Origin: a virus
Taxonomy: Duplodnaviria; Heunggongvirae; Uroviricota; Caudoviricetes
Direction: 5' to 3' (one strand)
IMG/VR virus record: IMGVR_UViG_2920292642_000002
Location: 19,431 to 83,430 of that record
DNA: 64,000 nt
The notes below the pieces were generated by a model. That model had not been told where the DNA came from. It saw nothing but the letters and a program-made list of their open reading frames with translations, and ran no database searches. The translations under genes and the position numbers were made by a program. Numbering within the stretch: position 1 is the stretch's first letter; every line of letters begins with the position of its first letter. This document shows, one piece after another, positions 49,380 to 63,871 of the stretch.

Positions 49380-49688
49380 GCGGCGTTAACCTTACCTGCA
49401 CAAGGTTAACGCCCGCGCCCGGCTCTGCACTCAACCCAGTTTCCCTAATGATTTCAAGGCTTTACGCCGGACTCCTACCAACTCCTAGAATGTACGAATT
49501 AGGAGTTGGGGAAAATTTGGATGATCATGGCCTCCAGATTTTGGATGAGCATGGTTTTGCATGAGGTCTGGCATGAGCATGGTCGAATTTTTGGATGGGG
49601 GAGAATTGGAACACGCGCCTGCGCGAGCGCGCGCCCGGATCGCTCAGATTTTCGGAAAACTTGAGTAAAATTTGAAACAAGCCCGCCG

Positions 49689-49845
49689 TTAACCATGCTC
49701 AGGTAAGGTTAACGCGCCTTGTTAACCATTCTCAGGTAAGGTTAACGGCCGGCGTTAACCATGCGGGAGTAAGGTTAACGCCGACCGCCTCCACCCAGCC
49801 CGCCTCGTTAACCCTACCCGAGTAAGGTTAACAACGCCAGCCCCG
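49689..49845. promoter_or_regulatory. cluster of four tandem GTTAACC-N10-GGTTAAC palindromes plus a half-site (operator-like array)
   Basis: perfect 7-bp inverted repeats with 10-bp spacer repeated at 49692, 49727, 49762, 49812; same element precedes every downstream cassette. Confidence 0.55.
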
Positions 49846-49927
49846 GCGTTAACCTTGCTGGCGATCGCCACTTGCATTTCGTGCGCAATGCATTATTCTG
49901 TATCAGTCAACGCAACAGGAAAGAAAA

Positions 49928-50149
49928 ATGAGCAAGGAACCTCCCTTCCTCGACTGGGACGCGATCGAGACCGAGATCGCCGACACCAATCGCAAGGCGT
50001 GGGACGCCGAAAACACCCCGGAGAAGATCGCGGCGCGCAAGGCCAAGTCTGAAGCCGAGTTCGAGCGCGGAGTCCGTAACGGCTGGTGGGACAAGGACGG
50101 CAATTCCCTCCAGCCCGAGGAGCCGGACGAGGAGGAGGACGAGGAATAA
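49928..50149 (+). CDS. cassette small protein (73 aa, acidic C-terminus)
   Basis: preceded by TTGCAT...TATTCTGTATCAGTCAACGCAACAGGAAAG leader. Confidence 0.5.
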   Translation: MSKEPPFLDWDAIETEIADTNRKAWDAENTPEKIAARKAKSEAEFERGVRNGWWDKDGNSLQPEEPDEEEDEE

Positions 50150-50286
50150 GACGCCGGCCGTTAACCATTCCGGGGTAAGGTTAACGCGTGCCGGCCGCGC
50201 CCGGCGTTAACCTTGCTGTCCAGATTCGCTTTACAAATCCGGAGGCGTCGCCTAAGGTGCTCTGGTCAACGCAACCGGAGGACCCC

Positions 50287-50613
50287 ATGAGCAAGCGATC
50301 CGACAAGGCAGCGGCCAAGCTGTTCCACCAACTGTTTCCCGGCGTCGGCTGGGATTACACCGACCACAAGGCCAAGCCGCTGCTGCGCGCCGCGTTCGCC
50401 CTTTACGAATCGGAGTGGAAGACCACCCAGCCTCAGGCGTTCAGGATTGAGCGCTGGGAGTGGCCGGCTAAGGCGTTCAAGAGCGACGATCCATATGTTT
50501 TCGACGCGCATGAGCCGTGGACGGTGCTTTTCCGCGAGGTCAAGATGCTGCACGACGCTCACCGCGAGACAAGCGGATACCCGCGCACGCTGGCGGACCG
50601 GATGCCCCGGTGA
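50287..50613 (+). CDS. cassette small protein (108 aa)
   Basis: promoter TTTACA-N17-TAAGGT and leader GTCAACGCAACCGGAGG upstream. Confidence 0.5.
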   Translation: MSKRSDKAAAKLFHQLFPGVGWDYTDHKAKPLLRAAFALYESEWKTTQPQAFRIERWEWPAKAFKSDDPYVFDAHEPWTVLFREVKMLHDAHRETSGYPRTLADRMPR

Positions 50614-50726
50614 TGACCTACGAAATCACCACGGCGCTTACCTTCCTGCTGATCCTCAAAGTGCCGCTGCTGCTCTGGATCGTCCAGTTCACGATGGACG
50701 TGGACTCCGGTCGCATCAAGCTCTGA
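50613..50726 (+). CDS. hydrophobic micro-protein (37 aa, MTYEITTALTFLLILKVPLLLWIVQF...)
   Basis: TGATG coupled to previous ORF; terminator follows. Confidence 0.4.
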   Translation: MTYEITTALTFLLILKVPLLLWIVQFTMDVDSGRIKL

Positions 50727-50907
50727 AACGTCGAGGCCGGGCCAAGCGCCCGGCCTTTTTCGTGCCGGCCGGCGTTAACCATACCCGAGTAAGGTTAACG
50801 GCGAGCGCGCCGGCTGCTCCGAGGCATTAACCTTGCTGTCCAGAATCGCTTTACAAAAGCGGAGGTATGGCCTAAGGTCCTCTGGTCAACGCAACGGAGA
50901 GACCGAC

Positions 50908-51168
50908 ATGTTCAAAATGGAGTTCAGGACCGACAACGCCGCTTTCGTCGACGATCAGGCCGGCGAGATCGACCGGATTTTCCGCGAGGTCGCCGAGCGC
51001 GTCGCGGCGGCGGAAAAGGGCGGCACGATCCGCGATAGCAACGGCAACCGAGTCGGCCGCTGGGAACTGGAGGCCGAAGACGAAGAGGAGGAAAACCCCT
51101 TCGATCCCGAGAGCCCGGAGGGTCGCGCGTGGGAGCGCGGCGACCGTCACCTTGTGGGAGGCAACTGA
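50908..51168 (+). CDS. cassette small protein (86 aa)
   Basis: leader GTCAACGCAACGGAGAG. Confidence 0.5.
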   Translation: MFKMEFRTDNAAFVDDQAGEIDRIFREVAERVAAAEKGGTIRDSNGNRVGRWELEAEDEEEENPFDPESPEGRAWERGDRHLVGGN

Positions 51169-51404
51169 TGACCAAGCGAGAGAAGCGCCGTTTCATCCGC
51201 GAACTGATCAGCGCTGTCCAGAAGTCAATTCTGGATCGTGTCCCAGACATGCCGGAGGAGTGGGACGGTCACGAACTGCGCGCCTATATCGCCGAGAAGT
51301 TCGGCGAAACCGTTGTGACGGTCGGCAGGACCGGGCACTATGGCAAGCCCTACGCCAAGCGGACCCGTGACTATCGCAACACCGTTATCGAGCGCAACCT
51401 ATGA
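51168..51404 (+). CDS. cassette small protein (78 aa)
   Basis: coupled to previous. Confidence 0.45.
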   Translation: MTKREKRRFIRELISAVQKSILDRVPDMPEEWDGHELRAYIAEKFGETVVTVGRTGHYGKPYAKRTRDYRNTVIERNL

Positions 51405-51532
51405 CCCTATTCGTGGAAGGCTACGAGGCCGCGAGACGTGGCGTCAAATGGTGGCGCAATCCCTATCCCTCAGGCTCTGAGGACGCCTACACATGGGACA
51501 AGGGACACACGAGGTTCCGCACCATCGGCTGA
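51401..51532 (+). CDS. small protein (43 aa)
   Basis: ATGA coupling; manual translation. Confidence 0.35.
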   Translation: MTLFVEGYEAARRGVKWWRNPYPSGSEDAYTWDKGHTRFRTIG

Positions 51533-51843
51533 TGCTGCACCGCACAACACGATAAATCAGGAGGTCGGGCCGCGTGCCCGGCCTCTTTTGCATTGCGGTA
51601 AGAGATTGATCTGCAAGGCTGATCTGGTCCAACTCCGAAAAGGTGGAAAAGCGGAGATGTCCGAAATCTGCGGCAAAGTTCGGACCGGCCGGGCCTTAAC
51701 CCTACCCGGTCAAGGTTAACCCGTCGACAGGCTCAGGACGCCCGGCCGCGCCACCTGCCGGCGTTAACCATGGCCGAAATCTCCGCTTGCAAATCATGCG
51801 GGATGCACTATTCTGATCCTGTCAACGCAACGGAGTTTTCGAC

Positions 51844-52077
51844 ATGGCAGTGCATTCCCTCGACACCTTCGGCCAGCCGGACGGCTCGACCCAGATCAAG
51901 GATCGGACCGGCGCACTGGTCGCCACCCTCGACTGGGACGGAGAGGCCAGCGCATGGAAGGTCACCCCGGACAACGACCCGATCGGCTTCCCGCGCCCGG
52001 CACACTTCGCCAGCCGCGTCGCGGCCGAGTTCTGGGTGCTGGCCTACGCCAACGAACTGGAGGCGACCGGGCATTGA
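51844..52077 (+). CDS. cassette small protein (77 aa)
   Basis: leader GTCAACGCAACGGAG. Confidence 0.5.
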   Translation: MAVHSLDTFGQPDGSTQIKDRTGALVATLDWDGEASAWKVTPDNDPIGFPRPAHFASRVAAEFWVLAYANELEATGH

Positions 52078-52149
52078 GCCCGGTCTTTTCCTTGCCCGGC
52101 CGGCGTTAACCCTACCCGAGTAAGGTAAACGCGGCCGGCTGCGGCGTTA

Positions 52150-52225
52150 ACCTTGCTGTCCAGATTAGCTTTACAAGAGCGGAGACCACACCTATGATGC
52201 TCTGGTCAACGCAACGGAGGACGTA
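52150..52225 (+). promoter_or_regulatory. representative cassette promoter and leader: GTTAACCTTGCTGTCCAGATT - TTTACA - N17 - TATGAT - GCTCTG - GTCAACGCAACGGAGG - ATG
   Basis: -35 TTTACA at 52170-52175, -10 TATGAT at 52193-52198, SD GGAGG 7 nt before ATG 52226. Confidence 0.55.
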
Positions 52226-52477
52226 ATGACTAAAGGCCCTATCATCCATGCACCTGTCGTGGTGCGCGAAGCATTCCGCATCGGCGATGAGATCATCGAC
52301 GCCAACCCGATCAGCGGTTTCCATTTCTCCGTCGAGACGATCGGCGGCAAGGTCTACACCGGATGCCCGGAAGAGTACGCCGACAACGGCGTTCTAATTC
52401 TCGACTGCGTTGGCGGCACGCCGACGCCGATCATCGACGTTGCCAAGATCGCCGCCATCACCGTGGTTGAGGTCTGA
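52226..52477 (+). CDS. cassette small protein (83 aa)
   Basis: ORF track. Confidence 0.5.
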   Translation: MTKGPIIHAPVVVREAFRIGDEIIDANPISGFHFSVETIGGKVYTGCPEEYADNGVLILDCVGGTPTPIIDVAKIAAITVVEV

Positions 52478-52480
52478 ACT

Positions 52481-52696
52481 ATGACGCACTATCCCCTTAC
52501 CCACGTCGACGGGAGCGCCGACAAGCGCTACTCGATCGCCAAGGAGTTTTGCGGCCACGCCGATCGCCGCTGGGTGCTCCGCTTCTGCGGCGAGTTCGTC
52601 AAGTCGTCGATCAGCTTTGCCAGCGTCGCCATCCGCGCCGCTGGTCACCGCTCGGCACTCAACGGCCAAGTGATATTTGAGGAGGTCCGGGCATGA
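52481..52696 (+). CDS. cassette small protein (71 aa)
   Basis: ORF track. Confidence 0.45.
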   Translation: MTHYPLTHVDGSADKRYSIAKEFCGHADRRWVLRFCGEFVKSSISFASVAIRAAGHRSALNGQVIFEEVRA

Positions 52697-52887
52697 AGAC
52701 CCAACTGCAACATTTTTGGGAAGCGCATCGCCGCATCGCCGATCTCAATGAAGCGATGCTCGATGCACTCTTCGGACCCAACCCGATCACCGACGCCGAG
52801 CTTCGCGCCTTGATCGAGAAGCGGCCGGAGCGTTACGGCCGCTTTGCCGGCTATCTCGGCACCCGTCAGATGGAGCAGGCCGCGTGA
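52693..52887 (+). CDS. cassette small protein (64 aa)
   Basis: ORF track. Confidence 0.45.
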   Translation: MKTQLQHFWEAHRRIADLNEAMLDALFGPNPITDAELRALIEKRPERYGRFAGYLGTRQMEQAA

Positions 52888-53023
52888 GCGGCCTTTTCCT
52901 TGCCCGGCCGGCGTTAACCTAACCGAGATAAGGTTAACGCGGCGGCGCGGCCGTTAACCTTGCTGTCCAGATTTGCTTTACAGTCTCCCCGGCTCTGCTA
53001 TGGTGTTCTGGTCAACGCAACGG

Positions 53024-53274
53024 AGAGACTCATGTACGTGATCCGCACCCACACTGTCGAACTGGCCGACAAGCGCTTCCTGTCCAGCGACACGCTGACG
53101 GAGATGACGGCGAAGGAACTGCGTACCGCCGAGGCCGAGAACCGGTCCGGCATCGAATACAACATCGTCACCGCCGAGATGGCGCGCCGCTATGTCAAGC
53201 AAGGCATGGTCCATGAAACGGGACTCTGGGTCGACATGGACGGTAAGGTCCGATACGCCAAGGCCGGGGAGTGA
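53024..53274 (+). CDS. cassette small protein (83 aa)
   Basis: internal ATG of ORF 52960..53274 after leader. Confidence 0.5.
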
Positions 53275-53417
53275 TCCCGGCCAACCCTTCACGCGCGTTA
53301 ACCATTCCAAGGTAAGGTTAACGGCCGCTCCGGCGTTAACCTTGCTGTCCAGAATCACTTGCATCTGGCGCAATCTCCGCTATTGTGAGACTGTCAACGC
53401 AACAAAGGAGATCGCTG

Positions 53418-53741
53418 ATGTACATGTTCAAGGACAAGAAGCTGGAGCAGGACCAACGCAAGGTCCAGTTCGGCGACGCCGACAAGTCCACCCTCGCCAA
53501 CATCTGCATGGTCGCGGCCGAGCGCTTTCGGGAGAACGCGGCCGAGTTCCGCAAGTGTATCGACTACAAGCCGAAGGAAGGCGAGTTCCCAATCTTCCCG
53601 ACCGGCGAGGCAGCCAAGCGGCTGGTCGAGCAGTTCGAGCGGCAGGCAGCCGAGGCGGAGAAGTTCCGCGACCTGTTCGACAACGTGGTTCAAATCCCGG
53701 ACATGGTGACGTTTGTCGAGGAAGAGGAGGAGGCCGCGTAA
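53418..53741 (+). CDS. cassette small protein (107 aa, ends EEEEEAA)
   Basis: stop codon lies in loop of terminator hairpin. Confidence 0.5.
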   Translation: MYMFKDKKLEQDQRKVQFGDADKSTLANICMVAAERFRENAAEFRKCIDYKPKEGEFPIFPTGEAAKRLVEQFERQAAEAEKFRDLFDNVVQIPDMVTFVEEEEEAA

Positions 53742-53886
53742 GCGGCCTTTTTCTTCGCCCGCCATTAACCCTAACCGGTCAAGGTAAACGCGGCCGGCCC
53801 CGGCGTTAACCTTGCTGTCCAGATTCGCTTTACAGATGCCGGCGATCTGCTATGGTGCTCCTGTCAACGCAACGCAGGAGTCCTGA

Positions 53887-54436
53887 CATGGATCATCTCG
53901 CTTTCCTCATGCCCATTTTCAATCGCCCAATGGGCGAAAGCTGGATCACCATGGTGATCGATGTCGTGCAAAAGCGCGACGCCGAGGATCACCCGATCAA
54001 CGGCGCAGATGTCGTCTCTTCCTATGAGACCGACAATCCCAAGCTGATCGGACATTCGCTGCGCGATCTGATCATCTCGGCACAGGCAAGCGTCACCGGA
54101 CAAGAGGACTGGTACGCCATTCGCGTCGAATACCGCAACGCCAATACGGTCGACGCCAAGCGCGCCCGAGCCATGGTCAAGACGCTCACCGCGATCGAGA
54201 AAGCGGCCGAGAAACTGCGCGACAAGCAGGGGCTCGACTATCTCACCGCGATCCTGCTGGCCTTCGACAAGGTATTTCCGGGCATGCAACTGGCCGAGAC
54301 TTCCGAGGGCGGCACAGTGCGCGGCTTCTACAATCGCCACAAGTGGCGGTGGACGCCGATCGGCGGCGCAGTCCGGGCAATCCGATCGAGCGCCGAGGAG
54401 GCGCTTGTCAGACACAGGAAGGAGAAGGCCGCGTAA
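53887..54436 (+). CDS. cassette protein (182 aa)
   Basis: ORF 53852..54436 from ATG 53887. Confidence 0.5.
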
Positions 54437-54584
54437 GCGGCCTTTTCCTTGCCCGGCCGGCGTTAACCCTACCCGGTCAAGGTTAACGCGGCCGACTCCG
54501 GCGTTAACCTTGCTGTCCAGATACGCTTTACAAATGCGGAGGTCGTGGTATGGTGCTCCTGTCAACGCAACAAGGAGTTCTGAC

Positions 54585-54962
54585 ATGACCCACATGGAAA
54601 ACCGCATCGCCCGCGCCGAGGCGCTGCTGGCCGAGAAAGGCGTCAACGTCTCGACCAAGGCCAGCCTCAAGATCGCGATCGATCAGGCCGGCGTCGCCCG
54701 CGTCAAGCTGGCCGATGTCAAGAATCACCTCCATCTGGTCTCCATGGCGGTCGAACGTGTGCTGGAGACGGGTCATCGCCTGACCGCGCACGAGTTCAAC
54801 GACGAACGATATTCCAAGGCGGTCACGGCCTGCGCCGCGATCGGTTTTCGCGAGGCGCTGGCCGCGCTCGATCGCGCGATCGAGTTCGCCGAACGCGATC
54901 TGGTCGCGTGGCGCGACGCGTGGAAGAACATCCGCACCATGACCAAGGAACGGGCCGCGTGA
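54585..54962 (+). CDS. cassette protein (125 aa)
   Basis: ORF 54405..54962 from ATG 54585. Confidence 0.5.
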   Translation: MTHMENRIARAEALLAEKGVNVSTKASLKIAIDQAGVARVKLADVKNHLHLVSMAVERVLETGHRLTAHEFNDERYSKAVTACAAIGFREALAALDRAIEFAERDLVAWRDAWKNIRTMTKERAA

Positions 54963-54974
54963 GCGGTCCGCCCC

Positions 54975-55037
54975 ATGGTCGCAGTCTTCCAACTGATCCT
55001 TGCACTTCTACTACTTTACATCCTCTGGCCGCTCTGA
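54975..55037 (+). CDS. hydrophobic micro-protein (20 aa, MVAVFQLILALLLLYILWPL)
   Basis: sits between main ORF and terminator; paralog at 59283. Confidence 0.4.
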   Translation: MVAVFQLILALLLLYILWPL

Positions 55038-55202
55038 CGAGCGGCCTTTGGCTTGCCCGGCCGGCGTTAACCCTACCCGGTCAAGGTTAATACTACCGCA
55101 CCGGCCGCGACCTCGACGCGTTAACCTTACTACCGATCGCCGCTTGCAATTCATGCAGGATGCACTATTCTGATCCTGTCAACGCAAACGGAGGTTTTCA
55201 AA

Positions 55203-55679
55203 ATGTCTGCATGGATGGTTTCTAACGCCCACGTCACCGCAATGATTTCTTGTGCGGTCGCACTGTTCCGGGAGTCCGACTCCTTCTCCGAGTTCCGTCT
55301 TGCTAATGGCAAGACGGCCGCGCGCCACGCTTTGGCCACTGCCGATCTGACCGAGCTTGGCAAGCTCCTGCTTCAGGAGAACGCCAAGAGCCTCGACGCC
55401 CGCTATCCCGGCGATAAGGGGTCAAGCGATGGCGACATGTACCATCAAGAGGAGATCGACTCCTATGTCTACGCCCGCGACAGTCACGCGGCCGGTCAGG
55501 ATGTCGGATTCCTTGCCAAGTTGATTAGCTGTTACGCTTATCAGTCCTGCGAACATGACGGCTGGGAGACCAGCGCGGCCAAGCAATGGTGCGACTGGGC
55601 GCAGGAGGTCGGCATCTCGGTCCTGCCGAGCTACAAGCGCGCACCATGGGGCTATGACGGACCGCCCGCGCCGCGTTGA
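55203..55679 (+). CDS. cassette protein (158 aa)
   Basis: ORF track. Confidence 0.5.
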   Translation: MSAWMVSNAHVTAMISCAVALFRESDSFSEFRLANGKTAARHALATADLTELGKLLLQENAKSLDARYPGDKGSSDGDMYHQEEIDSYVYARDSHAAGQDVGFLAKLISCYAYQSCEHDGWETSAAKQWCDWAQEVGISVLPSYKRAPWGYDGPPAPR

Positions 55680-55864
55680 CACACACGCGGGCCAAAGGAG
55701 GCCGGGCCGATCGCCCGGCCTCTTTTTCGCGCCGCGCCGGCCGTTAACCCTACCCGAGTAAGGTTAACGCCGATCGCCGGCCGCGTTAACCTTTCTGTCC
55801 AGATTTGCTTGCATCTGGCACAATCTCCGCTATTGTGGAATAGTCAACGCAAACGGAGGCTCCC

Positions 55865-56263
55865 ATGCCGCTACCTTCTCACCTGTTCATCGCCGATGAC
55901 GGCGCGCTCTACGACACCCGCGAACCAAACTGGGCGGAGCGCGCCCTTCGCCCGGTCTACAGAAAGACCGCCGTAACCATCCACGATGTCGCCGAACTGA
56001 AGGCGACCCTGCGCGTCGGTTCGCATGCATGGCCGGGTGGCTATCCCCTGTACATCGTATTGCAGGATGGATCGCCGATCACCCATGACACCGCGCGCAA
56101 GAATTTCCGCGAACTGGTCGCCGCAATGTGGGACGAGAACCTGCGCAACGACTGGCGACCGGTCGCCACGGGAATCAACTGGGAAGACCCGGACCTGTAC
56201 GACGCGCACACAAATGAGCGAATCCCCTCGGCCTATGCCGAGCCGGAGGAGGAGGCGGCGTGA
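55865..56263 (+). CDS. cassette protein (132 aa)
   Basis: ORF track. Confidence 0.5.
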   Translation: MPLPSHLFIADDGALYDTREPNWAERALRPVYRKTAVTIHDVAELKATLRVGSHAWPGGYPLYIVLQDGSPITHDTARKNFRELVAAMWDENLRNDWRPVATGINWEDPDLYDAHTNERIPSAYAEPEEEAA

Positions 56264-56331
56264 TCCTGCTGGTCCGACTCTTCGGGCTGGCACTGGCGCT
56301 GCTGTTTGCCTTCATCGTCTTCCAACTATGA
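56260..56331 (+). CDS. hydrophobic micro-protein (23 aa, GTG start, ILLVRLFGLALALLFAFIVFQL)
   Basis: GTGA overlap with previous stop; followed by terminator. Confidence 0.3.
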   Translation: MILLVRLFGLALALLFAFIVFQL

Positions 56332-56514
56332 CCGGGCGCAAGCCCGGTCCTTCCCTCCCCGGCCGGCGTTAACCCTACCCGCGTAAGGTTAACGCGCCGA
56401 GCGCCGGCCGCACCTGTCGGCGTTAACCTTACCTGCCGGCCGGTCAAGTTTCCGCTTGCAATTGTCCAGAATTACTTTACAACTCAAGGAGGTCAACGCA
56501 ACGGAGTTTCCGCG

Positions 56515-57147
56515 ATGGAACGCATAAAACTTCCCAACGGCTGGTCCGCCGAAATTCATCAGGATGAGGACTGCGAACGTCCCTATCAGGACGATGACGC
56601 GGTGCGGATCGTCGTCCTGCACGGCCGTTACATCGATCCGGCCAAGGGAAACTGCGGATCGGACCCGGATGAGGTCGCGCGCTGGGTCAAGGAAAACGCC
56701 CGCGATTGGTTCGTGACCAATCTCTATCTGTACGATCATAGCGGCGTCGCCTATCGGGCCGGCGAACGCAATCCATTCTCCTGCCCATGGGATAGCGGGC
56801 AGGTTGGCATCGTCGCGCTCAAAAAGAGCGAATGGGGACGCGGCAAGGGCGAACGCAACGCCAAGCGGCTGGAATATGCCAAGTCCGTCGCCGAGGAGTA
56901 TGGCCGCTGGGCCAATGGCGAATGCTATGGCTATGTGCTGCACGATCCCGAGGGCGAGGAAAGCGACTCCTGCTGGGGACACATCGGTTACGATTGGGTA
57001 TGCGAGGCCGCGAAGGACGCGGCCGAGGCCGGCGAGAAAGCCCGGCAACGGAGATTGAAGGAGGAGCAGGAGGAACGGAGACTGGCCCGGCAATCCAGAA
57101 CCAAAGCTTACATCCGCAACCACGTGCCGCTGGACAGGCGAGTCTAG
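56515..57147 (+). CDS. cassette protein (210 aa)
   Basis: ORF track. Confidence 0.5.
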   Translation: MERIKLPNGWSAEIHQDEDCERPYQDDDAVRIVVLHGRYIDPAKGNCGSDPDEVARWVKENARDWFVTNLYLYDHSGVAYRAGERNPFSCPWDSGQVGIVALKKSEWGRGKGERNAKRLEYAKSVAEEYGRWANGECYGYVLHDPEGEESDSCWGHIGYDWVCEAAKDAAEAGEKARQRRLKEEQEERRLARQSRTKAYIRNHVPLDRRV

Positions 57148-57390
57148 GAGGTCGACAAATCCCACACATTGATTAAAAGGCCGGACAAACTGTCCGGCCT
57201 TTTTGCTTGTCCGGCCGGTGTTAACCTTACCTGATCAAGGTTAACGGCCGTCGACGAGGCCTCCGACCTCGACCTCCGCGTTAACCTTACCGTCGACATC
57301 GGAGTTCGATTTTTGAAAAATTAGCTTGCATCCGTCCAGAAAATCTGTACGGTCAGAGTTGTCAATGCAACGCGAAATGGAGATCGCACA

Positions 57391-58476
57391 ATGACCACTC
57401 TGATCAACGCCCACAACAATTGGGCGCGCCGCGCACCCGATGAACGCTTTTCGTCGGTCGCGGACCTGCACGCCGCAGCCCTCAACTACAAGAACGCTGC
57501 GCGGCAGACCTCGAACCTGCCCGCCACCCGGCTGGAGGCGAAGGCGACCGAGGACGGCGCAGTCGTCCTCAACGGGTCGATGACCGAAACTAAGCTCACT
57601 CACTGGAGCTTTGGCCAGCTTGCCAAGATCGCCGATGCGCCGGCCGGCTATCTTCAGGACCTGCCCGCGCCGCTTGCGGCCGACTGCCTGAACAACGGCC
57701 TGCGCAAGGCGGGCGGCAAGGTCAACCTGTTCTACAAGATGGATGATCCGACCGAGCCGGCCGGCATGCGCACGCTGCGCGCGCTGACCTCGAACCGCTA
57801 TACCCGAATCTGGAATAGTGACATCACCCGCCGACTTGGCGAACTGGAGGCCGAAGGGCCATGGCAGCCCGCGCCGGCTGCGTTTGACGGCAGCCGTGGG
57901 TTGTATCTCGGCGACCGCGACATGTTCGCCTTTATGGTTGACAATGATCGCCGTATCTTCGAGACTGGTCCTGCTGGAGGCCTAAGCCGTGGATTTTTCG
58001 TAGAAAACTCCGAAGTCGGCGCGGCCTCTTTCAAGTTCACCAGCTTCCTGTATGAGTTTGTATGTGGCAACCACCGCGTGTGGGGCGCTTCCGAAGTCAA
58101 GGAGGTGCGCATCCGTCACGTGGGCGCGGCCGACGACTCCGCCTTCCGTCAACTGGAGGCCGAACTGGTCGCCTATGCCAATGCATCGGCGGCAGACGAT
58201 GAACTGAAAATCCAGCGCATGCGCCGCTATACGCTGGGCAAGGACCTCGACGCCGTCATCGATACCGTTATGGGCTTGCGAGTGCCCGGACTCGGCAAGA
58301 AGATGATCGAAGCAGGCTACGATCGCGCAGAGCAGTACATTGATTGGTACGGCGCGCCTAACACCGCTTGGGCGCTGGCCGGAGGCCTGACGCAGATCGC
58401 CCGCGACATGCCGAACGCTAACGATCGGGTGGCGCTGGAGCGGGCTTCCTCGAAGGTCATGGAAATGGCCTTCTGA
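57391..58476 (+). CDS. cassette protein (361 aa; possibly DUF932-like)
   Basis: ORF track; largest cassette gene. Confidence 0.5.
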   Translation: MTTLINAHNNWARRAPDERFSSVADLHAAALNYKNAARQTSNLPATRLEAKATEDGAVVLNGSMTETKLTHWSFGQLAKIADAPAGYLQDLPAPLAADCLNNGLRKAGGKVNLFYKMDDPTEPAGMRTLRALTSNRYTRIWNSDITRRLGELEAEGPWQPAPAAFDGSRGLYLGDRDMFAFMVDNDRRIFETGPAGGLSRGFFVENSEVGAASFKFTSFLYEFVCGNHRVWGASEVKEVRIRHVGAADDSAFRQLEAELVAYANASAADDELKIQRMRRYTLGKDLDAVIDTVMGLRVPGLGKKMIEAGYDRAEQYIDWYGAPNTAWALAGGLTQIARDMPNANDRVALERASSKVMEMAF

Positions 58477-58703
58477 TCCGACCGGGCCGGGCGAAAAGCC
58501 CGGCCCTCCCCTCCCCGAACGGCCCGGTTTCGACCGGGCCGTTTTGATTCAAACTTTAATCGTCGGCCGGCCGAAATTAACCCTACACGATTAAGGTTAA
58601 CGGAAATCGGAGCCGTCGACGACCTCCGACCGTCCATATTTTCCGCTTGCATCCGTCAAGATTTCCTGTACAAATCAGGAGGTCAACGCAACGGAGATGA
58701 GAC

Positions 58704-59213
58704 ATGCCTGAGTTCATCATGGAAGGAAAGGAACTCCCTGAGTTCCGCAAACTCGATAGCTTCACACAGGGCTACATCCAAGCCCTATTCTTCACCGAAT
58801 GCGAGCCTAACACCACGGCGGACGCCGGACAGGTCGACGACTTCATTCGGCTCTGGGACCCGGAAACGCAATCGAGCCTCCCCGGCGATGTCGGTTTCGC
58901 CGATCTCGACGCCGACTCGCTGGCGCGGATCATCAAGGCCTGTCAGGAGTTCCAAGCGATCTACGAAGCGGACCTCGATACCGTCGACGGCTACGCCCAT
59001 GGCCGACGCGGTGAGACATATTGCCGGGAACACGCCGGCCATGACTTCTGGCTGACCCGCAACGGCCATGGCGCTGGCTTCTGGGACCGCTACAAGTCCT
59101 CAGACGACCAGCCCGACGTGAAGGCGGCATTCGATCGCCTCAGCGATGCGGCCAAGGCCAAGGGCGAATGCTGGGCCACCTATGGCGATGACGGCAAGGT
59201 CTACCAGTCTTGA
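58704..59213 (+). CDS. cassette protein (169 aa)
   Basis: ORF track. Confidence 0.5.
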   Translation: MPEFIMEGKELPEFRKLDSFTQGYIQALFFTECEPNTTADAGQVDDFIRLWDPETQSSLPGDVGFADLDADSLARIIKACQEFQAIYEADLDTVDGYAHGRRGETYCREHAGHDFWLTRNGHGAGFWDRYKSSDDQPDVKAAFDRLSDAAKAKGECWATYGDDGKVYQS

Positions 59214-59282
59214 CGTGATTCCGTCCCGGTGACCGGCGCGACGCCGGGCCGGGATCATGCAGAGCGCGCCGCAAGGTGTTTT

Positions 59283-59345
59283 ATGCAAGCCGTGTTTTCG
59301 CTGATCCTATCGGGTCTATTCCTTTACATTCTATGGCCCTTGTGA
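59283..59345 (+). CDS. hydrophobic micro-protein (20 aa, MQAVFSLILSGLFLYILWPL)
   Basis: paralog of 54975..55037; terminator follows. Confidence 0.4.
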   Translation: MQAVFSLILSGLFLYILWPL

Positions 59346-59518
59346 GGCCGGGCCGGGGAACCTCCCCGGCCTTTCTTTTGCGCCGCGCCGGCCGTTAACC
59401 CTACACCATTAAGGTAAACGCCGCGCCGGCCGCGCGTTAACCTTGCTGCGCGCAACGGCTTGCATCTGTCCAGCGAATCTGTACAAATCAGGAGGTCAAC
59501 GCAACGGAGTTTCACACA

Positions 59519-60103
59519 ATGACCCGCAAGGAATTTGACCTGCACGGCTTCACCGCCGCACTCGCCGCCGTCCTCGGCGGCAAAGATCAGTCCAATTCAG
59601 ACCATTCGATGACGCGGCTTAGCGTCATGACTGGAGCGGTGGAGATGAGCCTGCGCACCGGCTACGGCTCGACATGGAACAAGGTGACGATCTGCCCCTA
59701 TTTTCCATGCCAGCAAGGCTTGAACCACTATGAGCAAATCAAGGTCGACTCGATAACCGTGACCGGCGATCGTGACATAGCGGCCGTGGCCAAGGACGTT
59801 AAGCGGCGCATTCTCGACGGCATCGAACCCAAGCTGGAGGAGGCGCGCGCCCGCGTCGCCGCCCGTGAGACGCTGAAAAGCAGCGTCGCCGAACGTGCGG
59901 CCGATTGGCAAAGGCGTTTCCCCGGACTGCAAGTGAAGATCAGCAGTGATGGAACGGGCGCAGATGTTTATTACAACCGCGCCGGCCGTTATCTCAACGG
60001 CTCAATGACCCGCGATGGTACGCTGAGTCTTCAGCGGGTGTCACTCGACGGGCCTGAGACCTCTGAGGCACTGCTGGCCTTACTGACCGCCGCGCCGCGT
60101 TGA
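59519..60103 (+). CDS. cassette protein (194 aa)
   Basis: ORF track. Confidence 0.5.
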   Translation: MTRKEFDLHGFTAALAAVLGGKDQSNSDHSMTRLSVMTGAVEMSLRTGYGSTWNKVTICPYFPCQQGLNHYEQIKVDSITVTGDRDIAAVAKDVKRRILDGIEPKLEEARARVAARETLKSSVAERAADWQRRFPGLQVKISSDGTGADVYYNRAGRYLNGSMTRDGTLSLQRVSLDGPETSEALLALLTAAPR

Positions 60104-60348
60104 CATCTAAGCGCGGCAACGGCCGGGGATGAGCCAAGCTCTCCCCGGCCTTTTCACGCGTGCACCTGAGACCTGTTAACCATATCCGGGTAAGGTTAAC
60201 GCCGTCCTAACGGGCCGGGACCCTTCGGAATCAAACTCCGGGCCTTTCGAATCGCTGGTTAACTTTATCTCCGCTTTTGTACAGTTTCGCTTGACTTGTC
60301 GCACTCCGGCCCTATCCTCGACCCTGTCAACGCAATGGAGTTCATGAC

Positions 60349-60987
60349 ATGGCCAAGGAAAAGTTTTTGATCATCGCCGAAAAGATGATTCCGGACTGTT
60401 TCGGTGTCTTCTCGGAGACCGCCAATTGCGCGGCGATCGACGCCGGCACCGCTGACCCGTCCGATCCTTATAGCTGGATCGAGGCGAGCTTCGAGATCAA
60501 GCTGGTGCGCTATCGCGAGGCCACCCACATTTGCAGCCTCACCCCGTCCGCTTATTATGTCTGGCTGCAAAACCAGTTTGTCGGCGAGCCGAACGCCGCG
60601 TGGGATCGCGATGGTGATCCTGAGGGTCTGGAGTTCGAAAACGGTGGCGAATGTCACGGCTATGGCACCTATCGCGATGAGTACGATCCGCGCTTCATTT
60701 GCGAGACCTTCACAATCGACACGATGAAGGACCTCCCCGATCCGATGCGCAAGCCGACCGTGCGCAACACCCTGTCACACCGCACCGACAAGGAACAGTC
60801 GGCGCTCGATCGCTATCACCGGGCAATCTGGAAAGCTGCCGAGGAGGCCGCGCGCGAGATGATGTGCAATAGTCTCTGGTGCGACATCCTGAACGTCTAC
60901 ACCTATCGCCAGTGGGAGCGCGACAAGCTGGAGGCCACACGGCGGCGATCATTGGATGAGTCCAAGCGTGCATGGATGAGCCTGTGA
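60349..60987 (+). CDS. cassette protein (212 aa)
   Basis: ORF track. Confidence 0.5.
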   Translation: MAKEKFLIIAEKMIPDCFGVFSETANCAAIDAGTADPSDPYSWIEASFEIKLVRYREATHICSLTPSAYYVWLQNQFVGEPNAAWDRDGDPEGLEFENGGECHGYGTYRDEYDPRFICETFTIDTMKDLPDPMRKPTVRNTLSHRTDKEQSALDRYHRAIWKAAEEAAREMMCNSLWCDILNVYTYRQWERDKLEATRRRSLDESKRAWMSL

Positions 60988-61239
60988 TCAGCATGTGATG
61001 AGATCGCGGGCGCTTCATCCCTCCCCCCGGAGCCGCGCGCCTGCGAGACGCGGGGACCTCCCGCCGAGGTCCCGGCGTTTTCGTTTGCCGGCCGGCGTTA
61101 ACCATACCGAGGTAAGGTTAACGGCTACGCCTGCCCGCGTTAACCAAAGATGCCGGGGACCCTTCGGAATCAAAGATAGGGCCTTGCTATTATTGCAGAA
61201 TGCAATATTCTGATCTGGTCAACGCAACGGAGTTTTCAC

Positions 61240-61524
61240 ATGTCCATCGAAGTCGATACCGTCACTGCGCCGGCCTACTGGGCTTCAGCCCTGATCAATG
61301 GTGATGAGTCCGGCATGGAGGACCACGAGATCAAGGCAATGGAGATGTGGCTGAAAGGTCTCGGCGACTTCTACGTCGTCGACGTTGCCCGCGATGAGGC
61401 CGGGGAGTCGCAGGAGGCGCGCTTCACTTGGAGCTATGAACTGTATGGCGGCACGGCTCAAGGTGGAGACGTTCTCGACTATGTGGTGCACCGAATCGTC
61501 AAGCAGGAGGCCGGCGCGGCTTAG
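61240..61524 (+). CDS. cassette small protein (94 aa)
   Basis: ORF track. Confidence 0.5.
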   Translation: MSIEVDTVTAPAYWASALINGDESGMEDHEIKAMEMWLKGLGDFYVVDVARDEAGESQEARFTWSYELYGGTAQGGDVLDYVVHRIVKQEAGAA

Positions 61525-61751
61525 GCCGAGCCCTTTCCTATCGCTGATCTCGCTGGATGGCGGGAGCGCATGCAGAACCTGATCGAGGGCGGGCCGCGCA
61601 AGCGGCCCTTTCCTTGTGCGGCCGAGGCCGTTAACCTTGACCCGGTAAGGTAAACAAATGCACCGGCCGGCGTTAACCATGTTTCCGAATGGGCCTTGCA
61701 TTTAATGCAGGATGCAATATTCTGCACTGGTCAACGCAACGGAGTTACGAA

Positions 61752-62006
61752 ATGTCCATCACCCAGACCAAAGGCGCGATCATCGCAACCGGCGAGGGCG
61801 TCAGCGTCTTTCAGGCGATCACGATCAAGACCGCCCTGAAGCTCTACGCCAAGACAGGCATCAAGGCCAATCGGGCATACACGCCGAAGGCCATGATGAC
61901 CATGGCCGAGAAGATCACGGGCCAGAAGTTCCGGGCACGGGATTACCTCGGCGCGGTCGCCGGGCTGGAGACGTGGATCGACGAGCGCAAGGAGGCAGGG
62001 GCGTAA
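61752..62006 (+). CDS. cassette small protein (84 aa)
   Basis: ATG in ORF 61689..62006 after leader. Confidence 0.5.
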   Translation: MSITQTKGAIIATGEGVSVFQAITIKTALKLYAKTGIKANRAYTPKAMMTMAEKITGQKFRARDYLGAVAGLETWIDERKEAGA

Positions 62007-62226
62007 GCCCCTCGACCTTGCCTAAAATTTTACCGAAATTTTTTACCGACCGTTAACCATACTCAGGTAAGGTAAACGAAAAGTTAACGCGACCGGCGCA
62101 GGTCGAGGCCGCGCGCCGGCCGCGTTAACGCGCCGTTAACCATGTCCAGAATAGGTCGACAAAGGCGCTTGCAATTCATGCAGGATGCACTAATCTCCGT
62201 CATGTCAACGCAACGGAGATTTGGTC

Positions 62227-62388
62227 ATGAAAAAGAATGTTCTGCACTTCGGACTGGATAGCGGATTCAAGGCGATCGCCCGCGATCACAACGTGACTCG
62301 CCGGACTTTCAAGGGCGAATACGTCACGGTAAAGCCGAGCTTCGCCCGCGTCATCGTCGACGCGATCAAAAACATTTTCGGCCTTTAA
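62227..62388 (+). CDS. cassette small protein (53 aa)
   Basis: manual translation. Confidence 0.4.
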   Translation: MKKNVLHFGLDSGFKAIARDHNVTRRTFKGEYVTVKPSFARVIVDAIKNIFGL

Positions 62389-62400
62389 GGAGGCCGAGAA

Positions 62401-62565
62401 ATGAAGCCGATCCGCTTCGATATCATCGATCGCCACACTGGAAAGAAGGTCGGCGAGGCGACGACTCGGGCAGGGGCGAATCGCTCCGTTGATCGCCGCG
62501 ATAACGCGTATGGCGCATATCGATACTCGGCAAAACCGATCTATGCCGAGGACAAGGCCGCGTAA
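62401..62565 (+). CDS. cassette small protein (54 aa, ends EDKAA)
   Basis: manual translation; stop in terminator loop. Confidence 0.4.
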   Translation: MKPIRFDIIDRHTGKKVGEATTRAGANRSVDRRDNAYGAYRYSAKPIYAEDKAA

Positions 62566-62695
62566 GCGGCCTTTTCTTTTGCCGATCGAGGCCGTTAACC
62601 CGGCGTTAACCATGTCCAGAATGGGTTTACAATCGTCCTTGCAATTCGTGCCGAATGCAATATTCTGTCCTTGTCAACGCAACGGAGTAAGCAAA

Positions 62696-62872
62696 ATGCG
62701 CTGCAAGATTTTCAATCTCTTCGAAGGCGAAATTCTTTTCCGAGTCGGCGAGGCGTTTCACGTCCAGTTGGACAACGGAATCGAAGTCAAGGTCGACGCG
62801 GCCGATGTCGATTTCTTCGCCTACATGCCGACGATCGAACTGGTCGAAGTTGTGGAGTATGTCGCGGCTTAG
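62696..62872 (+). CDS. cassette small protein (58 aa)
   Basis: tail of ORF 62489..62872. Confidence 0.4.
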   Translation: MRCKIFNLFEGEILFRVGEAFHVQLDNGIEVKVDAADVDFFAYMPTIELVEVVEYVAA

Positions 62873-62902
62873 GCCGCGACATTTCAACCGAGGAGGTTTG
62901 AA

Positions 62903-63145
62903 ATGCAGCCTTTCACCCTTTCGATCGAAACCGATGCTGGCACCTATCGGCACGGATTCCATCTCGGCACAATCGAGCGACTCGCGCGCGAACTGGCGGA
63001 GGAGATTTGTCTAAAGCGGAGGCCGCAACGCGGCACGCGAATCGTCACTGTCGCGCTTTGCCGCTTTGAGTCGATCGTCGACGTTTTCGACGGTAAAGAC
63101 TGGTCAAATGCGCTGCTTTCCAAGTTCGCCGAGGAGGCCGCGTAA
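62903..63145 (+). CDS. cassette small protein (80 aa, ends EEAA)
   Basis: ORF track. Confidence 0.5.
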   Translation: MQPFTLSIETDAGTYRHGFHLGTIERLARELAEEICLKRRPQRGTRIVTVALCRFESIVDVFDGKDWSNALLSKFAEEAA

Positions 63146-63265
63146 GCGGCCTTTTCTTTTGTTAACTCGGCGTTAACCATGGCGAGGAGTGGTTTACAAA
63201 AGGACTTGCGGCAATTCGTGCGGCATGCAATATTCACATTGTCAACGCAACTGAGGAGTCACCAA

Positions 63266-63496: not shown

Positions 63497-63530
63497 AAGA
63501 AAGGCCGCGAAAGCGGCCTTTTTCTTTTAC

Positions 63531-63768: not shown

Positions 63769-63871
63769 AACCTCTTGTTAACCATGTCCAGTATTGGTTT
63801 ACAAAAGGACTTGTGCCAAATCATGCGCCATGCAATAACACTCTTGTCAACGCAACTGAGGAGTTCAAGAC

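What the first reader, a model, noticed from the sequence alone, without database searches (positions are those of the whole stretch)
54975..55037. Family of 20-23 aa hydrophobic micro-ORFs tucked between cassette ORFs and their terminators
MVAVFQLILALLLLYILWPL (54975), MQAVFSLILSGLFLYILWPL (59283) and a GTG-initiated ILLVRLFGLALALLFAFIVFQL (56260) follow main ORFs with 0-70 nt spacing and precede the hairpin terminator. A 37-aa relative (50613) ends LLLWIVQF. The conserved ...YILWPL tails argue against chance. These may be single-pass membrane micro-proteins (host-membrane effectors, holin-like or regulatory peptides).
Basis: seen in the sequence. Interest (0 to 1): 0.6.

Follow-up and report, generated by a model that had tools for sequence, protein, structure and literature searches.

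The report
Conserved 19-20-residue hydrophobic phage micro-protein genes
The tiny hydrophobic reading frames are real, unannotated genes for 19-20-residue peptides that are long and greasy enough to span a membrane, are kept in two copies in a small clade of Mesorhizobium-phage-like viruses, and have no known function.

Summary
MVAVFQLILALLLLYILWPL (54975-55037) and MQAVFSLILSGLFLYILWPL (59283-59345) belong to a conserved family. I found 12 copies in six related phage contigs, always two per contig and 19-20 aa long. M1, W17 and P18 are invariant and L19 nearly so.

- **Coding:** within-phage copies show silent divergence pS 0.50-0.73 against pN 0.06-0.22. The reading frame and codon position 2 are the most conserved.
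- **Expression signal:** in 13 of 15 micro-ORFs the start lies -4 to +5 nt from the upstream stop, the signature of translational coupling. A GC-rich hairpin follows each WPL copy, and in 6 of 12 it overlaps the W-P codons.
- **Other ORFs:** the GTG ORF at 56260 resembles an unannotated 22-aa peptide in Mesorhizobium phage Cp1R7A-A1. That peptide occupies a slot that holds WPL copies in three other phages. The 37-aa ORF at 50613 is not a demonstrable relative.
- **Context:** an array of about 22 promoter-gene-terminator cassettes. One homologous promoter in Cp1R7A-A1 is bound and activated by host CtrA (PMC9437464).
- **Distribution:** no hit in Pfam, NCBIfam or PHROGs, and none in 185,579 bacterial and archaeal genomes.

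Best reading: trans-acting single-span membrane micro-proteins, target unknown. This is a new family of a known kind.

The parts
54975..55037 (+). WPL micro-ORF copy a, MVAVFQLILALLLLYILWPL (20 aa)
   Evidence: It is a family member by alignment A2. Against copy b, pS is 0.72 and pN 0.22.
59283..59345 (+). WPL micro-ORF copy b, MQAVFSLILSGLFLYILWPL (20 aa). An AAGG Shine-Dalgarno-like motif lies about 7 nt upstream of the ATG.
   Evidence: It follows the phrog_1915-type gene, the same slot as in L061 and L064.
56260..56331 (+). Second-type micro-ORF, (V/fM)ILLVRLFGLALALLFAFIVFQL, GTG start overlapping the upstream stop (GTGA). Probably a divergent relative of the WPL family.
   Evidence: It shares 10 of 22 residues with Cp1R7A-A1 MLLLRLIQLALFLLLLWVFIRL (L001 9715-9783), including the single Arg, encoded CGA in one and AGG in the other. 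The statistics are weak (E about 0.5 in a small database). A strong internal RNA hairpin is present.
50613..50726 (+). 37-aa ORF MTYEITTALTFLLILKVPLLLWIVQFTMDVDSGRIKL, coupled by a TGATG overlap. Same position type as the others, but no homologue was found. Coding status is uncertain and it is not shown to belong to the family.
54585..54962 (+). Upstream cassette ORF (125 aa) whose stop lies 12 nt before copy a. Its stop sits in a degenerate GGCCGC-GTGA-GCGGTC hairpin that lacks a T-tract.
   Evidence: No Pfam or PHROG match.
58704..59213 (+). Upstream cassette ORF (169 aa, phrog_1915, function unknown) preceding copy b.
55865..56263 (+). Upstream cassette ORF (132 aa) whose stop overlaps the GTG start of the 56260 micro-ORF.
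55027..55046 (+). Terminator-like hairpin GGCCGCTC-TGAC-GAGCGGCC followed by TTTGGCTT. The W-P-L codons form its 5' arm and the micro-ORF stop is in the loop.
59350..59372 (+). Terminator-like hairpin with a T-rich tail, starting 5 nt after copy b.
56330..56349 (+). Hairpin GACCGGGC-GCAA-GCCCGGTC overlapping the stop of the 56260 micro-ORF. The tail is C/T-rich with no clean T-run.
55066..55091 (.). 26-bp palindrome GTTAACC-N12-GGTTAAT. It is one of 26 copies of the inter-cassette element that follows each terminator.
59394..59419 (.). The same 26-bp inter-cassette palindrome, after copy b.
55118..55202 (+). Promoter and 5'UTR module of the next cassette: GCGTTAACC half-site, CTTGCA-N17-TATTCT, and GTCAACGCAA plus GGAG before the ATG at 55203. 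The gene 55203-55679 is 49% identical to Cp1R7AA1_019.
   Evidence: CtrA binds and activates the Cp1R7AA1_019 promoter (PMC9437464).

Best explanation
The YILWPL ORFs are real genes of a previously unannotated family of 19-20-residue, uncharged, hydrophobic micro-proteins, which I call 'WPL peptides'.

How they are made. Each is the last cistron of a promoter-gene-terminator cassette. It is translated mainly by termination-reinitiation from the gene in front of it, because its ATG sits within a few nucleotides of that gene's stop and often has no Shine-Dalgarno motif. Transcription then stops at a hairpin that begins at or just after the W-P-L-stop codons.

What they do. The released peptide is one helix of about one bilayer thickness, with Pro near both ends and a Trp/Tyr belt near the C-terminus. 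It inserts into the host inner membrane and acts in trans, most likely by helix-helix contact with a membrane protein of the host or the phage. The two copies per genome supply the same peptide from two transcription units.

Shown here: the ORFs are coding, conserved, positioned for translational coupling and placed before a terminator.

Inferred: CtrA-linked transcription (from a homologous promoter in Cp1R7A-A1), membrane insertion, and trans action. The target is unknown.
For: Coding and conservation
- There are 12 copies in 6 distinct contigs (the window, L007, L059, L061, L064, L140), two per contig. M1, W17 and P18 are invariant and L19 is nearly so.
- Within-phage copies show pS 0.50-0.73 against pN 0.06-0.22.
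- Amino-acid identity is 0.57 in frame against 0.35 and 0.32 in the other two frames.
- Codon position 2 varies least (0.11, against 0.32 and 0.41).
- The tail motif occurs only in contigs that carry the GTTAACC cassette module. It is absent from about 1 Mb of more distant DUF932 loci.

Coupling
- The spacer from upstream stop to ATG is -4 to +5 nt in 13 of 15 micro-ORFs.
- All 12 WPL copies start with ATG.
- About half have no Shine-Dalgarno-like motif (sequences).

Peptide-level constraint on W-P-L
- In 6 of 12 copies the TGGCCN codons are part of the terminator stem. In the other 6 the hairpin is separate, yet W-P-L is kept.

Membrane character
- Mean hydropathy is 2.0-2.8 and there are no charged residues.
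- IbsC shows that a 19-aa peptide can be a functional transmembrane helix (PMC12648545).
- Small membrane proteins can insert post-translationally through SRP with YidC or SecYEG (PMC7549839; PMC12648545).

Long-term retention
- The same slots recur across phages whose neighbouring genes are only 35-60% identical: after the 'ANIC' gene, after the phrog_1915 gene and after the 'HGWKA' gene.

A sequence-specific partner is suggested
- Within-genome copies share 15 of 19 residues, against 9.4 of 19 between genomes (permutation p = 1.5e-4). Third codon positions are almost equally diverged.

CtrA link
- The gene right after copy a is 49% identical to Cp1R7AA1_019, whose promoter binds CtrA and is CtrA-activated.
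- Perfect TTAA-N7-TTAAC boxes occur at four window cassettes.
Against: - There is no direct evidence of translation, membrane insertion or any phenotype.
- The family is tiny: six contigs plus one divergent peptide in Cp1R7A-A1, and 19 residues each. All statistics therefore rest on few sites, and silent sites are close to saturation.
- Cp1R7A-A1, the only cultured relative, has no WPL copy anywhere in its 131 kb. The peptide is therefore dispensable in at least one lineage.
- The window's own two copies are the least typical. Their spacers are 12 and 69 nt, and they lack Pro2 and the central Trp.
- Overlap of W-P-L with a terminator arm in half of the copies means part of the tail conservation could be RNA-level.
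- Nothing identifies a target.
Confidence: 0.55

Rival explanations
1. IbsC-like membrane toxin. The peptide does not bind a specific partner. It oligomerises in the inner membrane and lowers the proton-motive force. This slows the host or blocks superinfection, for example by stopping flagellar rotation or DNA uptake.
For: - It has the same size class and composition as IbsC, a 19-aa peptide that is almost entirely transmembrane helix and depolarises the membrane (PMC12648545).
- Such genes are typically missed by ORF callers and occur in several copies (PMC2887945).
- Weak, coupled translation would keep the dose low.
Against: - No promoter-like site lies on the opposite strand near either copy, and there is no separate promoter or long structured 5'UTR. 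The type I toxin-antitoxin layout is therefore absent.
- Strong conservation of specific residues (W17, P18, an aromatic at 14) and genome-specific matching of the two copies point to specific contacts. IbsC tolerates many hydrophobic substitutions (Mok 2010, as cited in PMC12648545).
- No sequence similarity to any toxin family.
Confidence: 0.2
2. Cis-acting ORF. What matters is a ribosome reaching the stop codon inside or next to the terminator hairpin. This suppresses termination and sets read-through into the next cassette. The peptide would be a by-product or a nascent-chain arrest element (W-P-L-stop).
For: - The stop codon lies in the terminator loop, or within a few nt of the stem, in 6 of 12 copies (for the window).
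- The most conserved part is the C-terminal W-P-L-stop.
- The ORF is always the last one before a hairpin.
Against: - Ordinary cassette proteins have the same stop-in-loop design (GGCCGCG-TAA-GCGGCC), so no extra ORF is needed for that effect.
- In the other 6 copies the hairpin starts 5-25 nt after the stop.
- Folding shows no alternative antiterminator pairing.
- Hydrophobicity is conserved along the whole peptide and pN is low throughout, which occupancy alone does not explain.
- Each downstream cassette has its own promoter.
- Known arrest peptides are not uniformly hydrophobic (my own knowledge of SecM and TnaC).
Confidence: 0.12
3. Recoded C-terminal membrane anchor. Stop-codon read-through or frameshifting fuses the hydrophobic segment to the upstream protein, giving a tail-anchored isoform.
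For: In three cases the micro-ORF is in frame with the upstream ORF with no intervening stop: window a at +12, window b at +69 and L140 a at +3.
Against: - The relative frame differs among copies (spacers -4, -1, +1, +2, +3, +5, +12, +69), so no single recoding mechanism fits.
- All 12 copies keep their own ATG, and 10 of 12 keep ATG-CCN.
- The upstream partner proteins are unrelated to each other.
Confidence: 0.04
4. Not a gene. The ORFs would be chance reading frames through a repeated DNA or RNA element of the inter-cassette module.
For: - They lie in a region full of repeated non-coding modules.
- Part of the tail overlaps a hairpin.
Against: - Nucleotide identity among copies is only 0.62, with most variation at third positions.
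- The peptide frame is much better conserved than the other two frames.
- No Rfam family reaches threshold.
- Hydrophobic-tailed ORFs are about 25 times more frequent than in simulations.
Confidence: 0.02

Closest known systems
IbsC / Ibs family type I toxins of Enterobacteria (18-19 aa)
   Same: - Length of about 19 aa, almost wholly one hydrophobic helix.
- Multiple copies per genome.
- Routinely missed by annotation (PMC12648545, PMC2887945).
   Different: - No antisense sRNA layout and no own promoter or 5'UTR. The WPL ORFs are translationally coupled to an upstream gene.
- Phage-borne, with no sequence similarity to Ibs.
- Conserved Trp/Pro tail.
Bacterial small membrane proteins that modulate larger membrane proteins (for example YohP 27 aa, AcrZ, KdpF, MgtS, CydX; review PMC12648545)
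   Same: - A single transmembrane helix with almost no soluble part.
- Expected post-translational insertion.
- Plausible action through helix-helix contacts.
   Different: - Shorter than nearly all characterised examples.
- No charged flanks, so no positive-inside signal.
- Phage-encoded, with no known partner.
CtrA-regulated gene sets in terminal regions of phiCbK-like phages, Lacusarx and Cp1R7A-A1 (Mascolo et al. 2022, PMC9437464)
   Same: - The same genomic compartment and the same kind of promoters.
- The window gene after copy a is the homologue (49% identical) of Cp1R7AA1_019, whose promoter is CtrA-bound and CtrA-activated.
- Genes of unknown function.
   Different: - That work describes binding sites and larger ORFs. 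A term search of the paper found no mention of 'transmembrane', and none of the 'small' passages shown concerned genes.
- The micro-ORFs are unannotated in MT188704.
Leader-peptide attenuators (TrpL, TnaC)
   Same: - A very short ORF ending at or next to a terminator.
- Trp and Pro near the stop.
   Different: - It lies at the 3' end of a cassette rather than upstream of the regulated genes.
- No alternative RNA fold.
- Uniformly hydrophobic, with selection along the whole peptide.
phiCbK gp003 (34 aa) and other small phage transmembrane proteins
   Same: A small hydrophobic last cistron before a predicted terminator, in the CtrA-site-rich terminal repeat.
   Different: Not homologous, longer, and with a charged N- and C-terminus.

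Membership tests
Small single-span membrane proteins (general class, 50 aa or fewer) | Length of 50 aa or less, with one hydrophobic stretch long enough to span a bilayer (about 18-20 residues) | tested here: met
   19-20 aa, mean Kyte-Doolittle hydropathy 2.0-2.8, no charged residue.
Small single-span membrane proteins (general class, 50 aa or fewer) | Evidence that the ORF is a gene, by conservation under purifying selection or by detected translation | tested here: met
   Conservation is met: pS 0.50-0.73 against pN 0.06-0.22, with frame-specific conservation. Translation itself cannot be tested with these tools.
Small single-span membrane proteins (general class, 50 aa or fewer) | Membrane localisation | not testable with these tools
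   This needs fractionation or imaging of a tagged or synthetic peptide.
Type I toxin-antitoxin (Ibs/Sib-like) | Small hydrophobic toxin peptide | tested here: met
   IbsC is 19 aa (PMC12648545).
Type I toxin-antitoxin (Ibs/Sib-like) | Cis-encoded antisense sRNA overlapping the toxin gene | tested here: inconclusive
   No promoter-like site on the minus strand near 54975-55037 or 59283-59345 in the consensus scan. That scan is weak evidence.
Type I toxin-antitoxin (Ibs/Sib-like) | Own promoter and a structured 5'UTR that limits translation | tested here: not met
   The ATG lies -4 to +5 nt from the upstream ORF's stop in 13 of 15 cases. Only window copy b has a stand-alone SD, and its SD and AUG sit in a predicted stem-loop.
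Type I toxin-antitoxin (Ibs/Sib-like) | Sequence membership in a known toxin family | tested here: not met
   No Pfam, NCBIfam or PHROG hit at E up to 10, 10 and 1 respectively.
Leader-peptide transcription attenuator | Short ORF ending at or near an intrinsic terminator | tested here: met
Leader-peptide transcription attenuator | Mutually exclusive terminator and antiterminator RNA structures | tested here: not met
   Minimum-free-energy and centroid folds show the terminator plus unrelated upstream hairpins, with no competing pairing.
Leader-peptide transcription attenuator | Regulated genes lie downstream on the same transcript and lack their own promoter | tested here: not met
   Every downstream cassette carries the conserved promoter and 5'UTR module.
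Holin | At least one transmembrane domain plus a charged hydrophilic C-terminus, typically 60 aa or more | tested here: not met
   19-20 aa with no charged residue.
Holin | Linked to endolysin and spanin genes | tested here: not met
   The neighbours are unrelated small cassette genes. In Cp1R7A-A1 the holin, endolysin and spanins lie at record positions 96.7-103.0 kb, while the cassette array is at 1-14 kb.
CtrA-regulated phage gene set (PMC9437464) | CtrA boxes (TTAA-N7-TTAAC) concentrated in intergenic regions of the array | tested here: met
   Four perfect boxes where 0.04 are expected, plus 36 GCGTTAACC half-sites where 0.24 are expected.
CtrA-regulated phage gene set (PMC9437464) | Homology to an experimentally CtrA-dependent promoter and gene | tested here: met
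   Window 55203-55679 is 49% identical to Cp1R7AA1_019. The validated promoter contains TTAACTTCCTGTTAAC. The window's own promoter has only a half-site plus the palindrome.
CtrA-regulated phage gene set (PMC9437464) | CtrA binding and CtrA-dependent transcription of the cassettes that carry the micro-ORFs | not testable with these tools
   This needs EMSA or reporter assays on the promoters upstream of 54585 and 58704.

The most novel reading that the evidence does not exclude
The WPL peptides could be the membrane-acting arm of the CtrA-linked programme of these phages. On this reading they are minimal transmembrane-helix ligands that bind a host cell-cycle or motility component in the inner membrane, for example the CckA/DivL kinase module, flagellar stators or the pilus machinery. 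They would feed back on CtrA activity or on receptor availability. The target's lineage-specific transmembrane sequence would explain why both copies in one phage keep the same amino-acid sequence while their codons drift apart.
Probability: 0.08. Interest if true: 0.8.

Novelty: new member of a known kind. Interest (0 to 1): 0.5.

Why it matters
- **Size:** at 19-20 residues these are among the shortest conserved protein-coding genes one can document by comparative evidence. No annotation pipeline reports them. The homologous slot in the published Cp1R7A-A1 genome is unannotated.
- **Context:** they sit in the cassette array for which a CtrA-dependent 'lytic deferment' role has been proposed, without any known effector. 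They give that hypothesis a small, synthesisable and easily mutated candidate.
- **Evolution:** the two copies per genome match in amino acids but not in codons. That makes a compact test case for selection on transmembrane-helix recognition.

Tried and rejected
1. tblastn of the 20-aa peptide against 50,697 phage records found no match. The query is short and low-complexity filtering applies.
The 5.8-billion-protein set was therefore not searched.
3. Pfam, NCBIfam and PHROGs returned nothing for the peptides. Pfam returned nothing for ten neighbouring proteins. PHROGs gave only unknown-function families for neighbours.
4. A scan of IMG/VR with the 5'UTR 15-mer gave 46 single chance hits and no new relative.
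5. A first DUF932 single-sequence search gave only distant loci lacking the module. An alignment-based search was needed.
6. The genome-contig scan with a 39-bit degenerate peptide pattern gave 9 hits. All are non-hydrophobic or interrupted by stops, so they are chance.
7. Rfam gave only sub-threshold terminator-like hits.
8. The attenuation idea was rejected because folds show no antiterminator.
9. The recoding or fusion idea was rejected because the relative frames are inconsistent.
10. The 37-aa ORF 50613 as a family member was rejected because no similarity was found.
11. No WPL copy exists in the rest of Cp1R7A-A1.
12. The phiCbK terminal repeat holds only one non-homologous small transmembrane ORF.

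Full report
**1. What is in the sequence**

The window from about 49.4 kb to its end is an array of about 22 plus-strand cassettes. It lies downstream of an intein-containing terminase large-subunit gene (46566-49379). Each cassette has these parts in order:
- a 26-bp palindrome GTTAACC-N12-GGTTAAC, found 26 times where 0 are expected;
- a GCGTTAACC half-site, found 36 times where 0.24 are expected;
- a sigma-70-like promoter;
- a conserved 5'UTR ending GGAGGTCAACGCAACGGAG, found at 22 sites;
- one to three ORFs;
- a GC-rich hairpin terminator, which often holds the stop codon in its loop (GGCCGCG-TAA-GCGGCC).

In a six-frame scan of the 64 kb, only five open frames end in a strongly hydrophobic 18-mer. 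Three of them are these ORFs, all on the plus strand of the array. Simulated sequence gives a mean of 0.2 and at most 2.

**2. The two YILWPL ORFs are genes**

The two copies share 15 of 20 residues, and eight of the identical residues use different codons (pS 0.72, pN 0.22). To find relatives I used a degenerate DNA pattern for the tail. I also collected loci encoding the neighbouring DUF932 protein from IMG/VR and JGI metagenomes.

Every contig that carries the GTTAACC cassette module also carries the micro-ORF, always twice:
- L007 (= L060) at 3965 and 5006
- L059 (= L139) at 3071 and 4578
- L061 at 3412 and 9553
- L064 at 1095 and 6991
- L140 at 7663 and 13260

None of the roughly 100 more distant DUF932 loci (about 1 Mb) has it. 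The DUF932 proteins of these contigs are only 58-63% identical to the window's, so these are distant relatives.

The alignment (A2) gives M-P-x-x-x-L-I-x-W-L-x-x-L-Y-V-I-W-P-L-stop. M1, W17 and P18 are invariant, and L19 is present in 11 of 12 copies.

Evidence that selection acts on the peptide:
- Across the five other within-phage pairs, pS is 0.50-0.73 and pN 0.06-0.22.
- In-frame amino-acid identity is 0.57, against 0.35 and 0.32 in the shifted frames.
- Codon position 2 is the least variable.

**3. How the peptide is expressed**

In 13 of 15 micro-ORFs the start codon lies -4 to +5 nt from the stop of a 72-180-aa upstream ORF (TGATG, TAATG, GTGA, TGAnATG). That count includes the 12 WPL copies, the 56260 and 50613 ORFs and the Cp1R7A-A1 peptide. 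About half have no Shine-Dalgarno-like motif. This is the classical arrangement for termination-reinitiation. The window's own two copies are the outliers, with spacers of 12 and 69 nt. Copy b has an AAGG motif.

A GC-rich hairpin follows each WPL copy.
- In six copies the TGG-CCN codons are themselves the 5' arm of the hairpin and the stop is in the loop. These are window a, L059 a, both L061 copies and both L064 copies.
- In the other six the hairpin is separate, yet W-P-L is retained.

Tail conservation therefore cannot be purely an RNA constraint. Folding shows no alternative antiterminator. Ordinary cassette proteins use the same stop-in-loop design. A dedicated cis-regulatory role is therefore not needed to explain the position.

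**4. Slots, mobility and co-variation**

The upstream partner genes fall into recurrent families:
- an 'ANIC..AAERF' gene in L007, L059 and L140;
- a phrog_1915 gene in the window, L061 and L064;
- an 'HGWKA' gene in L059 and L061;
- several singletons.

The same partner genes also occur without a micro-ORF in other phages. So the micro-ORF occupies about six alternative slots, while two copies are kept per sampled contig.

Within-phage copies are much more alike in amino acids than copies from different phages (15 of 19 against 9.4 of 19; permutation p = 1.5e-4). Third codon positions are nearly as diverged (9.5 against 7.9 of 19). Two explanations are possible. Copies may be repeatedly copied between slots and then drift silently. 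Or both copies may track one phage-specific or host-specific partner. With 19 codons and near-saturated silent sites I cannot decide between them.

**5. The other two ORFs**

The GTG ORF at 56260 overlaps the upstream stop by GTGA and is followed by a hairpin. It shares 10 of 22 residues with an unannotated 22-aa ORF of Mesorhizobium phage Cp1R7A-A1 (MLLLRLIQLALFLLLLWVFIRL, L001 9715-9783, TGATG overlap). The shared residues include the only Arg, encoded CGA in one and AGG in the other.

That Cp1R7A-A1 ORF sits in the ANIC slot, which holds WPL copies in three other phages. Its core LI.LA..LLLLWV matches the L061 peptides. I read both as a divergent branch of the same family, with moderate confidence.

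Cp1R7A-A1 has no WPL-type copy anywhere in its 131 kb.

The 37-aa ORF at 50613 is coupled (TGATG) and contains a hydrophobic segment. Its status is open.

**6. Context from the literature**

Mascolo et al. 2022 (PMC9437464) showed the following:
- Cp1R7A-A1, Lacusarx and phiCbK-like phages concentrate CtrA-binding sites in terminal regions full of genes of unknown function.
- Phosphorylated CtrA binds the Cp1R7AA1_019 promoter.
- That promoter is CtrA-activated.

The window gene 55203-55679, immediately downstream of micro-ORF a, is 49% identical to gp019. Four window cassettes carry perfect TTAA-N7-TTAAC boxes.

The micro-ORFs are thus very probably co-transcribed with CtrA-responsive cassettes. 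This is an inference from homology and was not tested here. A term search of the paper found no mention of 'transmembrane', and none of the 'small' passages shown concerned genes.

**7. What it most likely does**

The product is a 19-residue uncharged helix with Pro near both ends and Trp/Tyr near the C-terminal interface. That is just one bilayer span. IbsC (19 aa) shows that such peptides can be functional transmembrane helices. Small membrane proteins can be inserted post-translationally by SRP with YidC or SecYEG (PMC12648545, PMC7549839).

I commit to a trans-acting membrane micro-protein made at low level by reinitiation, most likely acting through helix-helix contacts with a membrane protein (confidence 0.55 for the whole statement). 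The rivals are:
- a non-specific IbsC-like depolariser (0.2);
- a cis-acting ORF that modulates terminator read-through (0.12);
- a recoded membrane anchor for the upstream protein (0.04);
- a non-coding element (0.02).

**8. Comparison and novelty**

- No Pfam, NCBIfam or PHROG family matches.
- No Rfam family reaches threshold.
- A specific degenerate pattern found no copy in one genome each of 185,579 bacterial and archaeal species.
- IMG/VR holds no copy outside the contigs above.

The kind, a small hydrophobic phage or bacterial micro-protein, is well known. The family is new and at the extreme lower size limit. It fails the defining layout of type I toxin-antitoxin loci, of leader-peptide attenuators and of holins (see the membership table). 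I rate it a new member of a known kind, with interest 0.5.

Noticed in passing
window 49385-63802 (26 sites, e.g. 54462-54487, 55066-55091, 56368-56393): A 26-bp palindrome GTTAACC-N12-GGTTAAC sits once per inter-cassette gap, between terminator and promoter (26 sites, 0 expected). A similar TTAACCCTAA..TTAGGGTTAA element follows the micro-ORFs in L007, L059, L061, L064 and L140. It looks like an operator for a dimeric regulator. Its TTAAC half-sites resemble CtrA half-sites but are inverted and two helical turns apart.
   Followed up: partly
window 62125-62140, 62595-62610, 63162-63177, 63767-63782: Perfect CtrA-type boxes (TTAA-N7-TTAAC, here palindromic TTAAC-N6-GTTAAC) lie directly upstream of the promoters of the last four cassettes (0.04 expected). 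The EMSA-validated Cp1R7AA1_019 promoter has TTAACTTCCTGTTAAC (L001 16031-16046).
   Followed up: partly
window 49906-63855 (22 sites): A conserved 5'UTR, GGAGGTCAACGCAACGGAG, precedes the ATG of every cassette. GTCAACGCAA occurs exactly at 21 sites and with one mismatch at one more. It is more conserved than a ribosome-binding site needs to be, so it may be a protein-binding or RNA-binding site or the transcript's +1 region.
   Followed up: no
window e.g. 53733-53760, 54428-54455, 52877-52894, 62554-62573, 63131-63156: Many unrelated cassette proteins end in -EAA or -AA. This is because the terminator GGCCGCG-TAA/TGA-GCGGCC overlaps their last codons, with the stop codon in the hairpin loop. 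The module boundary therefore lies inside coding sequence.
   Followed up: partly
window 63530-63766: A perfect tandem repeat of 38 bp, 6.2 copies (CTGCACGCGATCGGCCGTCCTGCCGTCCAGAGGCGCGC), lies between a terminator and the next promoter.
   Followed up: no
window 46566-49379: The terminase large subunit (937 aa) appears to be interrupted by an intein. Intein_splicing and Hom_end_hint score below their cut-offs, and Terminase_6C scores above its cut-off. The Cp1R7A-A1 orthologue has the same insertion.
   Followed up: partly
L001 (MT188704 reverse complement) 9715-9783 and 20473-20559: Two unannotated small hydrophobic ORFs occur in the published Cp1R7A-A1 genome. One is the 22-aa MLLLRLIQLALFLLLLWVFIRL. 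The other is the 28-aa MIADSFTHRVAFSVALVLIVAIIFGAFS, whose start (ATGA) and stop (GTGA) both overlap neighbouring genes.
   Followed up: partly
window 49.4-64 kb; L001 and L184: The cassette array lies directly downstream of the terminase large-subunit gene. In Cp1R7A-A1 it runs to the end of the linear record, and the portal and capsid genes lie at the other end. The array therefore separates terminase from portal if the genome is joined.
   Followed up: no
L185 (phiCbK JX100813) 1586-1690: phiCbK gp003 (34 aa, one hydrophobic helix) is the last cistron before a predicted terminator in the CtrA-site-rich terminal repeat. It is a non-homologous positional analogue of the micro-ORFs.
   Followed up: no
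window 59250-59310: The Shine-Dalgarno motif and AUG of micro-ORF b lie in a predicted long stem-loop (59251-59308). It could limit independent initiation. The z-score of the whole fold is only -1.6.
   Followed up: no
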